A stretch of 64,000 bases of DNA, taken from Octopus vulgaris. Taxonomy: Eukaryota. A program made the translations under genes and the position numbers. The notes beneath the pieces were generated by a model that made no database searches, was not told the origin of the DNA, and saw only the letters and a program-made list of their open reading frames with translations. The stretch lies in the NCBI GenBank assembly GCA_951406725.2, contig OX597825.1, forward strand, positions 25,730,001 to 25,794,000, written 5' to 3'. Numbering within the stretch: position 1 is the first letter of the stretch; every line of letters begins with the position of its first letter. Shown piece after piece: positions 8,101 to 51,757 of the stretch.

Positions 8101-8452
8101 CAACATAAATTATAGTTTCACCTTTATAGTCTAGACTGGTGCCATTTGGACTTCTTCAGATTCATCACCGTTTCATTTAAATGAGGACGTAAGCATTGCT
8201 ACATTGCAATGACTCTCAATAGTTGTATTCCATATTTAGAAGCTGTGTCAGTCGACATTGACCAACGCTTTGCAAGTGTTTAGGCCTGAGCAAGATTTAT
8301 TGAGTATGATTGATAGTGATCTATATATATATATATATATATAAAAACTTTTTTAAAACTATTTCTAATACTTAAAGAAAATCTCTCTCATATAGTGTTT
8401 GCTCAATTCAACTCACGAAAGTATGGGGGTAAAGACATTAAAAAATCAAATG

Positions 8453-8527
8453 CAAAGGTTATTTGAGAACGTACGTTTCAAGATTAGTCAAACTCGACAT
8501 TTCTATCATCAGCTCAGAACTCCTTGG
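8453..8527 (-). ncRNA. Type I hammerhead ribozyme-like motif (inverted copy)
   Basis: Reverse complement of the motif at 8963-9037. Confidence 0.6.
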
Positions 8528-8962
8528 TTTGGATTTGAAAACACTGAAAGTGGGAGCATACCCTTTCGGCTTCTTATCGCTTCTGAAGATCTGCTCGAAA
8601 CTAACAGTGCCAGCACACCCAAAATATGCAAGCGAAGAATTTCTGCTCTCCCCTTTCCACCAGCGTGGGTTAAAATCAGTAAACACTATGCTTTTTCGGT
8701 AAATCCGAAACATTAAATAGAGAGAGATGAATTATAATTTCAACAATTGAGGGTAAAATTAATTAATTATTAATCAATGTTTCGGATTTACCGAAAAAGC
8801 ATAGTGTTTACTGATTTTAACCCACGCTGGTGGAAAGGGGAGAGCAGAAATTCTTCGCTTGCATATTTTGGGTGTGCTGGCACTGTTAGTTTCGAGCAGA
8901 TCTTCAGAAGCGATAAGAAGCCGAAAGGGTATGCTCCCACTTTCAGTGTTTTCAAATCCAAA

Positions 8963-9037
8963 CCAAGGAGTTCTGAGCTGATGATAGAAATGTCGAGTTT
9001 GACTAATCTTGAAACGTACGTTCTCAAATAACCTTTG
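8963..9037 (+). ncRNA. Type I hammerhead ribozyme-like motif
   Basis: UGAG-CUGAUGA(8978-8984)-stem II (AGA..GUCG/UGAC..UCU)-GAAA(9011-9014)-CGUACG-UU-CUCA; stem I UGAG/CUCA extended by AAGG/CCUU; predicted cleavage after 9022. Confidence 0.65.
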
Positions 9038-9526
9038 CATTTGATTTTTTAATGTCTTTACCCCCATACTTTCGTGAGTTGAATTGAGCAAACACTATAT
9101 GAGAGAGATTTTCTTTAAGTATTAGAAATAGTTTTAAAAAAGTTTTTTTAGCTACTATTTCTAATGAGTTCAGTATGTGGCAAAGTAATTTATTTTACTA
9201 AGCCCTTTTATATAATGTAATAATTTAAATTCGCCTTAAATGGTCCCTTTACATACTGAACACTTGGTGAAATTGATTAATAATTAATTAATTAATTTTA
9301 CCCTCAATTGTTGAAATTATAATTCATCTCTCTCTATTTAATGTTTCGGATTTACCGAAAAAGCATAGTGTTTACTGATTTTAACCCACGCTGGTGGAAA
9401 GGGGAGAGCAGAAATTCTTCGCTTGCATATTTTGGGTGTGCTGGCACTGTTAGTTTCGAGCAGATCTTCAGAAGCGATAAGAAGCCGAAAGGGTATGCTC
9501 CCACTTTCAGTGTTTTCAAATCCAAA

Positions 9527-9601
9527 CCAAGGAGTTCTGAGCTGATGATAGAAATGTCGAGTTTGACTAATCTTGAAACGTACGTTCTCAAATAACCTTT
9601 G
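9527..9601 (+). ncRNA. Type I hammerhead ribozyme-like motif (second tandem copy)
   Basis: CUGAUGA 9542-9548, GAAA 9575-9578; identical to 8963-9037. Confidence 0.65.
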
Positions 9602-9878
9602 CATTTGATTTTTTAATGTCTTTACCCCCATACTTTCGTGAGTTGGAATTGAGCAAACACTATATGAGAGAGATTTTCTTTAAGTATTAGAAATAGTTTT
9701 AAAAAAGTTTTTTTAGCTACTATTTCTAATGAGTTCAGTATGTGGCAAAGTAATTTATTTTACTAAGCCCTTTTATATAATGTAATAATTTAAATTCGCC
9801 TTAAATGGTCCCTTTACATACTGAACACTTAGTGAAATTGATTAATAATTAATTAATTAATTTTACCCTCAATTGTTG

Positions 9879-9920
<42 letters not shown>

Positions 9921-42806: not shown

Positions 42807-43180
42807 AGGTGCCGGCGTGGCTGTGCAGTAAGAAGCTTGCTTCCCAAATACAAGGTTCCGGGTTCAGGATCTTCTACTTTAGCCTCGGTCCGGCCAAATC
42901 CTTGTGAGTGGATTTGGTAGAAAGAAGCTCAACGGATATATATATATATATTTGTGTCTGTATGTTTATATTTATATGTATATATGTATTTGTGTCCTCT
43001 CCACCGCTTGACAATCGGTGTTGGTATGTTTATATCCACGTAATTTAGCAATTCGGCAAAAAGAGCGATAGAATAAGTACTAGACTTACAAAGAATATAA
43101 ATCCTGGTGACGATTTGATCGACTGAATGTATTGCTCCAGCATAGCCGTAGTCAGATGACTGAAACAAGTAAAAGAAGTA
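42807..43180 (+). mobile_element. SINE family A; its 3' ~140 bp is duplicated at 43988-44125
   Basis: Family A head and tail; 43041-43180 recurs at 43988-44125 with one substitution and one 1-nt indel. Confidence 0.85.
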
Positions 43181-43202
43181 TATATAGAAGTATATAAAAG
43201 AA

Positions 43203-43243
<41 letters not shown>

Positions 43244-43333
43244 TTTGTTGGCACTGTTAGTTACGAGCAGATCTTCGAAAGCGATGAGAAGCCGAAAGGG
43301 TATGCTCTCACTTTCAGTGTTTTCAAATCCAAA

Positions 43334-43408
43334 CCAAGGAGTTTCTGAGCTGATGATAGAAGTGTCGTGTTGACTAATCTTGAAACGTACGTTCTCAAAT
43401 AACCTTTG
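43334..43408 (+). ncRNA. Type I hammerhead ribozyme-like motif
   Basis: CUGAUGA 43350-43356, GAAA 43382-43385, then CGUACGUU-CUCA; core identical to locus 1, with differences only in the stem II region and distal stem I. Confidence 0.65.
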
Positions 43409-43891
43409 CATTTGATTTTTTGATGTCTTTACCCCCAAACTTTCGTGAGTTGAGTTGAGCAAGCACTATATGAGAGAGGTTTTCTTTAAGTATTAGAAAT
43501 AGTTTTAAAAGTTTTTTAGCTGCTATTTCTAATGAGTTCAGTATGCGGCAAAGTAATTTATTTTACTAAGCCCTTTTATATAATGTAATAATTTGAATTC
43601 GCCTTAAATGTTCCCTTTGCATACTGAACACTTGGTGAAATTGATTAATAATTAATTAATTTTACCCTCAATTGTTGAAATTATAATTAATCTCCCTCTA
43701 ATTAATGCTTCGGATTTTACCGAAATAAGTATAGTGTTTGCTGATTTTAACCCACGCTGGTGGAAAGGGGAGAACAGAAATTCTTCGCTTGCATATTTGA
43801 GTTTGTTGGCACTGTTAGTTACGAGCAGATCTTCGAAAGCGATGAGAAGCCGAAAGGGTATGCTCTCACTTTCAATGTTTTCAAATCCAAA

Positions 43892-43966
43892 CCAAGGAGT
43901 TTCTGAGCTGATGATAGAAGTATCGTGTTGACTAATCTTGAAACGTACGTTCTCAAATAACCTTTG
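43892..43966 (+). ncRNA. Type I hammerhead ribozyme-like motif
   Basis: CUGAUGA 43908-43914, GAAA 43940-43943; one G>A change weakens stem II. Confidence 0.55.
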
Positions 43967-44123
43967 CATTTGATTTTTTGATGTCTTTAATTTAGCAATT
44001 CGGCAAAAAGAGCGATAGAATAAGTACTAGACTTACAAAGAATATAAATCCTGGTGACGATTTGATCGACTGAATGTATTGCTACAGCATAGCCGTAGTC
44101 AGATGACTGAAACAAGTAAAGAA

Positions 44124-44163
<40 letters not shown>

Positions 44164-51179: not shown

Positions 51180-51757
51180 AAGGCGGCGAGCTGGCAGAGA
51201 CAGTAGCCCGCCGGGAAAAATGGTTAGCAGTATTTCGTCTGCCGCTACGTTCTGAGTTCAAATTCCGCCGAGGTCGACTTTGCCTTTCATCCTTTCGCGG
51301 TCGATTAAATAAGTACATGTTACGCACATGGGTCGATATAATCGACTTAATCCGTTTGTGTGTCCTTGTTTGTCCCCTCTGTGTTTAGCCCCTTGTGGGT
51401 AGTAAAGAAATAGGTATTTCGTCTGCCGGTACGTTCTGAGTTCAAATTCCGCCGAGGTCGATTTTGCCTTTCATCATTTCGCAGTCGATTAAATAATTAC
51501 CAGTTATGCACTTGGGTCGATATAATAGACTTAATCCGTTTGTGTGTCCTTGTCTGTCCCCTCTGTGTTTAGCCTCTTGTGGGTAGTAAAGAAATAGGTA
51601 TTCCTAAGTTCAAATTCCGCCGAGGTTGACTTTGCCTTTCATCCATTCGGGGTCGATAAATTAAGAACCAGTTACGCACTGGGGTCGATGTAATCGACTT
51701 AATCCCTTTGTTTGTCTCCTCTATGTTTATCCCCTAGTGGGCAATAAAGAAATAAGA
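51180..51757 (+). mobile_element. SINE family B concatemer: one head plus three ~184-bp bodies
   Basis: Body restarts (GTATT) at 51230, 51414 and 51598 after the tail AAAGAAATAG. Confidence 0.88.

What the first reader, a model, noticed from the sequence alone, without database searches (positions are those of the whole stretch)
9023..9586. Hammerhead-delimited monomer folds into long helices, with covariation between the two loci
Seen, folded by eye. (1) GUUCAGUAUGU (9168-9178) pairs with ACAUACUGAAC (9251-9261); at locus 2 both partners change, to GUUCAGUAUGC / GCAUACUGAAC (43536-43546 / 43619-43629), a U-A to C-G compensatory change. (2) UAGAAAUAGU/ACUAUUUCUA (9123-9132 / 9154-9163) becomes U-G at locus 2. 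(3) A long-range arm pairs ~9053-9109 with ~9326-9410 (CGUG.GUUGAA with UUUAAC.CACG, AAACACUAU with AUAGUGUUU, GAGAGAGAU with AUCUCUCUC); at locus 2 it includes a 13-bp helix 43458-43470 / 43730-43742. The extra G in tandem copy 2 also fits the pairing. Inference: selection acts on a rod-like or branched + strand RNA structure, as in retrozyme and viroid circles.
Basis: partly seen in the sequence, partly recalled or inferred. Interest (0 to 1): 0.75.

Follow-up and report, generated by a model that had tools for sequence, protein, structure and literature searches.

The report
Structured hammerhead retrozyme, twin-primed insertions
This is one copy of a 560-letter non-coding jumping repeat, present over a thousand times in an animal genome, whose folded RNA shape has been preserved through paired mutations and which carries a predicted self-cutting motif; it belongs to a known kind (retrozymes), and its insertion ends suggest that a Penelope-type enzyme likely copies one RNA, probably a circle, from two fixed start points at once.

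Summary
All quoted helices and coordinates are real, and 9023-9586 runs exactly from one predicted hammerhead cut site to the next. The two loci alone do not show covariation: one two-sided change, P about 0.15, and 6 of 11 changed pairs break. The family does. In 43 units (73-100% alike), 6-11 distinct pairs change on both sides on one tree branch, against about 1 by chance, whichever of six units supplies the structure. One-sided changes favour G-U on the + strand (86 vs 37). The fold is branched, not a rod. The element is a young non-LTR retrozyme family (1,416 exact ribozyme-core matches) inserted in (TA)n, mostly as two back-to-back arms. In 34 of 35 such insertions one arm ends at unit position ~197 and the other at ~299, and both arms come from the same variant, which is the scar expected from Penelope-type twin priming. 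Those two sites lie in a 160-nt helical module shared, with compensatory changes, by a second ribozyme family. Cleavage, circles and the helper enzyme are not shown. This scan has already reported the same kind and end rule for other families in this genome.

The parts
8340..8778 (-). Inverted arm of locus 1: unit positions 250-564 then 1-128, ending in (TA)n; contains one hammerhead core (8512 down to 8468)
   Evidence: 98.7-99.2% identical to the + arm; 3-nt overlap at the junction 8776-8778
8776..9887 (+). Direct arm of locus 1: unit positions 318-564, 1-564, 1-299, ending in (TA)n at fixed end B
9023..9586 (+). One full 564-nt unit, predicted cut site to predicted cut site; longest ATG frame 84 codons on this strand
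8965..9035 (+). Upstream type I hammerhead motif (core 8978-9022, predicted cut 9022/9023)
   Evidence: sequence; core consensus recalled; not detected by Rfam
9529..9599 (+). Downstream type I hammerhead motif: CUGAUGA 9542-9548, helix II 9549-9574 with U-U at its base, GAAA 9575-9578, 2-bp helix III with palindromic GUAC loop, GUU cut triplet, predicted cut 9586/9587, helix I with an internal loop
   Evidence: sequence; CUGANGA kept in 42 and GAAAC in 41 of 43 units; helix I pair C-G to U-A in 4 of 30; not detected by Rfam at E<=10
9055..9112 (+). 5' strand of the long-range arm
   Evidence: 6 of the 9 same-branch two-sided events fall in this arm
9327..9413 (+). 3' strand of the long-range arm
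9119..9163 (+).
9165..9324 (+). Conserved 160-nt module (helix H3 9165-9261, hairpins 9266-9302 and 9306-9324) that holds both fixed insertion ends; shared at ~72% with a second, ~591-nt ribozyme family
   Evidence: 0.45 changes per column against 1.07-1.9 elsewhere
9214..9230 (+). Fixed end A (unit ~192-208), AU-rich loop inside H3; inferred reverse-transcription start
   Evidence: 74 of 178 arms
9312..9321 (+). Fixed end B (unit ~290-299); inferred reverse-transcription start
   Evidence: 84 of 178 arms
9432..9526 (+). Second long hairpin arm (unit 410-504)
   Evidence: 4 pairs with two Watson-Crick types
43240..43989 (+). Locus 2: single arm, unit positions 411-564, a full 558-nt unit (43394-43951) and 1-38; another subfamily, 92.6% identical

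Best explanation
This is a young, protein-free tandem repeat family inserted in (TA)n, whose unit keeps a branched + strand RNA fold through compensatory changes, and which is likely a retrozyme copied by a Penelope-like enzyme: tandem transcripts are predicted to self-cut at the hammerheads and probably close into 560-nt circles, and the enzyme likely nicks both strands of a (TA)n target and primes both nicks on one RNA, at two fixed sites. Shown: the family, its copy number, its target, the two fixed ends and their one-of-each pairing, the common template variant of both arms, seamless arrays of up to 13.7 units, and covariation on the + strand. Inferred: one reverse transcriptase starts at site A (~197) and one at site B (~299), both inside the conserved 160-nt module that probably serves as the protein-loading element; both run on past the ribozyme site, often for several turns; the two cDNAs join head to head with short overlaps or small gaps. 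Untested: self-cleavage, circle formation, the promoter and the identity of the helper element.
For: 1,416 exact ribozyme-core matches, reversed-pattern control 0; 5,175 module matches, control 128. Of 49 insertions taken in genome order, 37 are two-armed, 35 have both ends at A or B, and 34 of these have one of each (p=1e-9); 11 of 11 further ones in a second subfamily (read by eye). Arm-to-arm divergence median 0.57% against 5.7% to other insertions (63 insertions), and 48 of 71 insertion-private variants are in both arms. Some insertions have arms that cover separate parts of the unit, so neither was copied from the other (L236, L254; L235). 145 of 178 arms cross a ribozyme site and 70 cross two or more. 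Covariation: 9 same-branch two-sided events against 1.3 +/- 1.2, 0 of 1000 controls; 6-11 distinct pairs against 0.8-1.4 for six reference folds, 0 of 300 each. An RT + GIY-YIG element with intact 781-codon frames exists in the genome; it also ends in (TA)n at two fixed sites 39 nt apart, one of each in 2 of 2 back-to-back cases. In vitro a Penelope-like protein cuts and extends both strands of AT-rich DNA, starts inside the RNA at two sites and is modelled as a dimer (PMC11167929, parts 1-2 of 4 read).
Against: No helper element sharing sequence with this family was found among 40 GIY-YIG loci; only 150 of 6,136 candidates were scored. Rfam does not recognise the hammerhead, the isolated motif folds no better than shuffles (z +0.5 and +1.1), and its triplet is GUU with a U-U base of helix II, so cutting may be slow. 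5' ends do not pile up at the cut site (2 of 178 arms end exactly there): this fits a circle but equally an RNA that is never cut. Li et al. 2026 found cleavage in only 1 of 9 predicted retrozymes. The window's own inverted arm ends at position 128 and locus 2 at position 38, neither at A nor B. The covariation test is my own parsimony count, not R-scape, and mosaic copies can repeat an event.
Confidence: 0.72

Rival explanations
1. Same Penelope-type twin priming, but the template is an uncut linear multimer transcribed from an older array; the hammerhead is slow or protein-dependent and no circle is involved. Arrays would then lengthen by template jumps or unequal crossing-over.
For: No pile-up of 5' ends at the cut site; weak isolated ribozyme fold; for the anole element, ribozyme mutants did not impair insertion in vitro and uncut RNA was the main substrate (PMC11167929).
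Against: Arrays of up to 13.7 units with seamless junctions and array-private variants shared by all 9-11 units need a lengthening step that a circle supplies directly; the ribozyme core is kept while its variable positions change across subfamilies 73-80% alike. These points favour but do not prove a circle.
Confidence: 0.2
2. The paired changes come from mutation, not selection: template switching between inverted repeats, or inherited A-to-I editing of stems, on a repeat that happens to be self-complementary.
For: Many stem changes are A to G (49 vs 18 T to C); in young subfamilies unpaired positions also showed A to G excess (29 of 57 sites vs 6 of 71); the share of pair-keeping changes is only slightly above control (0.565 vs 0.51, 18 of 1000).
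Against: C to T also exceeds G to A in stems (37 vs 19, p=0.02), which editing cannot make; template switching would be strand-symmetric and would not favour G-U; insertion-private variants show no clear A to G excess (18 vs 13); three two-sided changes separate two families only 72% alike.
Confidence: 0.05
3. The unit is only the orphan terminal repeat of an autonomous Penelope-like element, produced by 5' truncation, and has no life cycle of its own.
For: Xenopus retrozymes are related to Penelope pLTRs (Li et al. 2026); the insertion anatomy is that of Penelope-like elements (PMC8557442 passages).
Against: The unit continues into itself past both fixed ends; among 240 family-related loci the Penelope protein matched 6, and the two I read (L168/L201, L235) were separate insertions side by side; the other four were not read. 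Many subfamilies have diversified as full tandem units.
Confidence: 0.03

Closest known systems
Metazoan non-LTR retrozymes (Cervera and de la Pena 2020, PMC7229834, parts 2-4 of 6 read; Li, Clavereau and Pollet 2026, bioRxiv 10.64898/2026.07.22.740005, parts 1-3 of 5 read)
   Same: Non-coding tandem repeats, one type I hammerhead per unit, G+C under 50%, stable self-paired fold, thousands of dispersed copies, co-occurrence with Penelope-like elements. The motif resembles axolotl HHR_Amex2 (2-bp helix III with tetraloop, U-U at the base of helix II). The ribozyme-competent fold costs only 5.3 kcal/mol in the circle, in line with the unblocked ribozymes described for animal retrozymes.
   Different: Unit of 545-571 nt, longer than the 170-400 nt circles shown in 2020 though within the 51-972 bp range of the 2026 survey. 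The parts I read describe no back-to-back arms, paired fixed ends, shared module or covariation test. Circles and cleavage are shown there and untested here.
Penelope-like elements (Craig et al. 2021, PMC8557442, 12 passages read; Frangieh et al. 2024, PMC11167929, parts 1-2 of 4 read)
   Same: Tandem plus inverted 5'-truncated copies, microsatellite targets, a 'tail' at one end only, internal start of reverse transcription at two sites, extension of both target strands in vitro.
   Different: No RT or GIY-YIG frame; the two ends are ~100 nt apart instead of 30-40; no parent element found.
Twin priming of LINE-1 (recalled, no call)
   Same: Inverted arrangement from two primers on one RNA, joined by short overlaps.
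   Different: Here both starts are fixed sites, there is no poly(A), and both arms can exceed one unit length.
Hammerhead viroids and plant LTR retrozymes (as summarised in PMC7229834)
   Same: Highly self-paired small RNA with a hammerhead.
   Different: Type I motif on one strand only, no LTR/PBS/PPT seen, genome-encoded; no sign of RNA-to-RNA replication was sought or found.

Membership tests
Non-LTR retrozyme | Head-to-tail repeats of a few hundred bases with a type I hammerhead in consecutive units | tested here: met
   arrays up to 13.7 units. Motif identified by recalled core consensus; Rfam gives no hit
Non-LTR retrozyme | No protein-coding capacity | tested here: met
   longest ATG frames 84 (+) and 97 (-) codons in the doubled unit; frames not searched against protein families
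Non-LTR retrozyme | Stable self-paired fold of the unit | tested here: met
   (z -4.4 to -6.9 on +), covariation
Non-LTR retrozyme | Dispersed, recently amplified copies | tested here: met
   96-100% identical copies on many contigs
Non-LTR retrozyme | Self-cleavage | not testable with these tools
   core conserved; isolated fold weak
Non-LTR retrozyme | Accumulates as circular RNA | tested here: inconclusive
   no RNA holder listed; contigs cannot tell a circle from a tandem transcript
Penelope-mobilised element | Tandem and inverted arms, fixed 3' ends with a tail at one end, AT-rich target | tested here: met
   same scar in an RT + GIY-YIG family of this genome
Penelope-mobilised element | Sequence shared with the terminal repeat of an autonomous element | tested here: inconclusive
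   none in 40 GIY-YIG loci, a small part of 6,136 candidates
Autonomous Penelope-like element | RT + GIY-YIG reading frame | tested here: not met
   no match of the 781-aa protein in the window

The most novel reading that the evidence does not exclude
The 160-nt helical module is a portable loading element for a dimeric Penelope enzyme: it sets two start points on one RNA circle, one per target strand, and has been kept by compensatory change across retrozyme families that otherwise differ in ribozyme and body. It would be a defined RNA signal that turns any small circle into a rolling-circle template for genomic insertion.
Probability: 0.4. Interest if true: 0.62.

Novelty: new member of a known kind. 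Interest (0 to 1): 0.38.

Why it matters
Retrozyme folds are usually shown as single energy predictions. This family gives a tree-aware and strand-specific sign that the fold is under selection, and points to the part that matters most: the module holding the two insertion ends. The strict one-of-each use of those ends and the common template of both arms make a concrete prediction for how Penelope-like enzymes build their unexplained tandem and inverted insertions, and for how retrozymes are mobilised, a route so far proposed. The class itself is known, and this scan has noted the same end rule in other families of this genome.

Tried and rejected
Two-locus covariation as evidence: not significant. 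Extra G: private to 1 of 200 units. Folding energy as a strand test: both strands score. Rfam: no hit at gathering score in the window, no hammerhead at E<=10 over 9480-9660. A circular RNAalifold run on 26 per-insertion rows with missing data gave a poor fold and was not used; the tool's run on 30 real units gave 142 pairs, 9 with two-sided changes, but it is fitted to the alignment, so single-sequence folds were used for the tests. The homopolymer hairpin (unit 111-129) was left out because its alignment is ambiguous; 10 of 99 insertions with under 90% cover were left out, and L113 was dropped from then on as a degraded copy. Inherited A-to-I editing as main driver: not supported by private variants (A to G 18 vs T to C 13 shared by an insertion; 19 vs 25 private to one unit), though one search showed an A to G excess on internal branches. 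Helper search: L168 and L235 are chance neighbours; the 781-aa family shares no sequence or module. Expression: no RNA holder listed; in 4 runs guessed to be RNA, contigs covered the element and not the 720-nt unique flank, which is no proof either way. Literature: searches listed no paper on this family or on retrozyme covariation; the supplement of PMC7229834 could not be read and bioRxiv supplements are closed, so a listing there cannot be excluded.

Full report
Observation. The interval 9023-9586 is one unit of a tandem repeat and runs from one predicted hammerhead cut to the next (core consensus recalled): CUGAUGA at 9542-9548, GAAA at 9575-9578, a two-pair helix III around the palindromic loop GUAC, the triplet GUU, and helix I closed by the start of the next unit. 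Rfam does not find the motif and on its own it folds no better than shuffles, but CUGANGA is kept in 42 and GAAAC in 41 of 43 units while N7, the cut base and helix III vary (many of these units were found through the motif, so this count is partly circular). The unit folds far better than shuffles (z -6.8; circular z -4.4 to -6.9 on the + strand, -2.5 to -5.7 on the - strand) into a branched shape: a long arm, three to four hairpins, a second arm and the ribozyme.

Covariation. Two loci are not enough. They differ at 31 positions; 11 of 133 confident pairs change, 5 keep pairing and 6 break, and one two-sided change is expected with probability 0.15. The extra G is private to 1 of 200 units. 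I therefore collected copies and aligned 43 units 73-100% alike to locus 1. With pairs taken from the locus-1 fold alone, 9 two-sided pair-keeping changes map to single branches, against 1.3 +/- 1.2 when each base is given another partner of the same letter (0 of 1000), and 15 pairs show two Watson-Crick types against 5.6 (0 of 1000). Counting distinct pairs, leaving out an ambiguous homopolymer hairpin and using six different units as the source of the fold gives 6-11 pairs against 0.8-1.4 (0 of 300 each; internal branches only, 0-1 of 300). The overall share of pair-keeping changes is only modestly above control (0.565 vs 0.51), so the constraint is real but loose outside the core helices. 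Strand: at Watson-Crick pairs one-sided transitions that make G-U on the + strand number 86, those that make A-C number 37; unpaired positions give 65 and 61 (p=0.004; C to T 37 vs G to A 19 alone p=0.02). The + strand RNA is the one under selection.

What it is. The ribozyme core matches 1,416 times in the 2.8-Gb genome, the reversed control never. Copies are young, lie in (TA)n and form arrays of up to 13.7 units. This meets the sequence definition of animal non-LTR retrozymes (PMC7229834; bioRxiv 10.64898/2026.07.22.740005). Locus 1 is not a plain tandem: an inverted arm (8340-8778) is joined head to head to the direct arm (8776-9887), with (TA)n on both sides.

Insertion anatomy. Of 49 insertions taken in genome order, 37 are two-armed, always back to back. 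Arms end at two fixed unit positions, A (~197) and B (~299): 74 and 84 of 178 arms. Of 35 insertions with both ends at A or B, 34 have one of each (p=1e-9); so do 6 of 6 long arrays and 11 of 11 in a second subfamily (read by eye). The arms of one insertion differ by a median 0.57%, against 5.7% to other insertions, and 48 of 71 variants private to an insertion are present in both arms. Some insertions have arms covering separate parts of the unit, so each arm was primed on its own. 145 of 178 arms pass through a ribozyme site, and only 2 end exactly at it. Both window loci are exceptions in part: the inverted arm ends at 128 and locus 2 at 38.

The module. Positions 143-302 change three times less often than the rest and hold both fixed ends. 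They recur at ~72% identity in a second family with a ~591-nt unit and a different, longer hammerhead, where three pairs of helix H3 have changed on both sides (each is one event at the family split). A pattern from the module matches 5,175 times against 128 for the control.

Mechanism. Penelope-like elements leave tandem and inverted insertions with a tail at one end and favour microsatellites (PMC8557442, passages); the anole protein cuts and extends both strands and starts inside the RNA at two sites (PMC11167929). This genome holds intact RT + GIY-YIG frames, and that family ends in (TA)n at two sites 39 nt apart, one of each in 2 of 2 back-to-back cases. The simplest reading is that such an enzyme binds the module on one RNA, primes both nicked strands at A and B, and runs on past the junction, best explained by a circle. 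The helper was not identified, and an uncut linear multimer remains a fair rival.

Novelty and score. A new member of a known kind. I reached this reading before consulting the scan's notes, which then showed the same kind and end rule reported for 359-, 485/490- and ~590-nt families in this genome; a look-up by this unit's sequence returned nothing. What this finding adds is the tested covariation, the strand assignment and the shared module. Interest 0.38.

Noticed in passing
window 43041-43196 and 43988-44142: Locus 2 is flanked by a 156-bp direct duplication (96.8% identical) of a common dispersed repeat, each copy followed by (TA)n, and the element stops at unit position 38. It may be an unusually long target duplication or a later rearrangement.
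   Followed up: partly
run X18 laid on window 9563-9032 junction (table 5c); run X2 record 19 on window 8444-8756: One low-depth contig (2.8) from another organism label spans the ribozyme junction with 10 of 12 A read as G and no other change; a contig in X2 carries mostly A-to-G differences on the antisense strand. This looks like A-to-I hyper-editing of double-stranded RNA, as back-to-back arms would form; run types are not on record and no matching DNA run was compared, so it is only a hint.
   Followed up: no
L229:940-2350, L201-L230: Second retrozyme-like family, ~591-nt unit, hammerhead with a long helix II, same two-armed insertions; 1,760 first-look candidates.
   Followed up: partly
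L181-L197 (e.g. G000:C4:116249000-116258000): Young Penelope-like family with intact 781-codon RT + GIY-YIG frame and a CxxxxCxxC linker (Neptune-like by recalled definition), an upstream 479-codon frame in some copies, and two fixed 3' ends in (TA)n; no canonical hammerhead found by pattern.
   Followed up: partly
L103 subfamily, L131-L160: The U-U mismatch at the base of ribozyme helix II is A-A in this subfamily: both sides change and it stays a mismatch.
   Followed up: no
runs X10, X16-X18, X20: The family is present in runs under four other organism labels (B-E), so it is not confined to one species label.
   Followed up: no
window 51230-51716: 184-bp tandem, 2.7 copies, that looks like a tRNA-derived SINE unit (identification recalled, not tested).
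   Followed up: no
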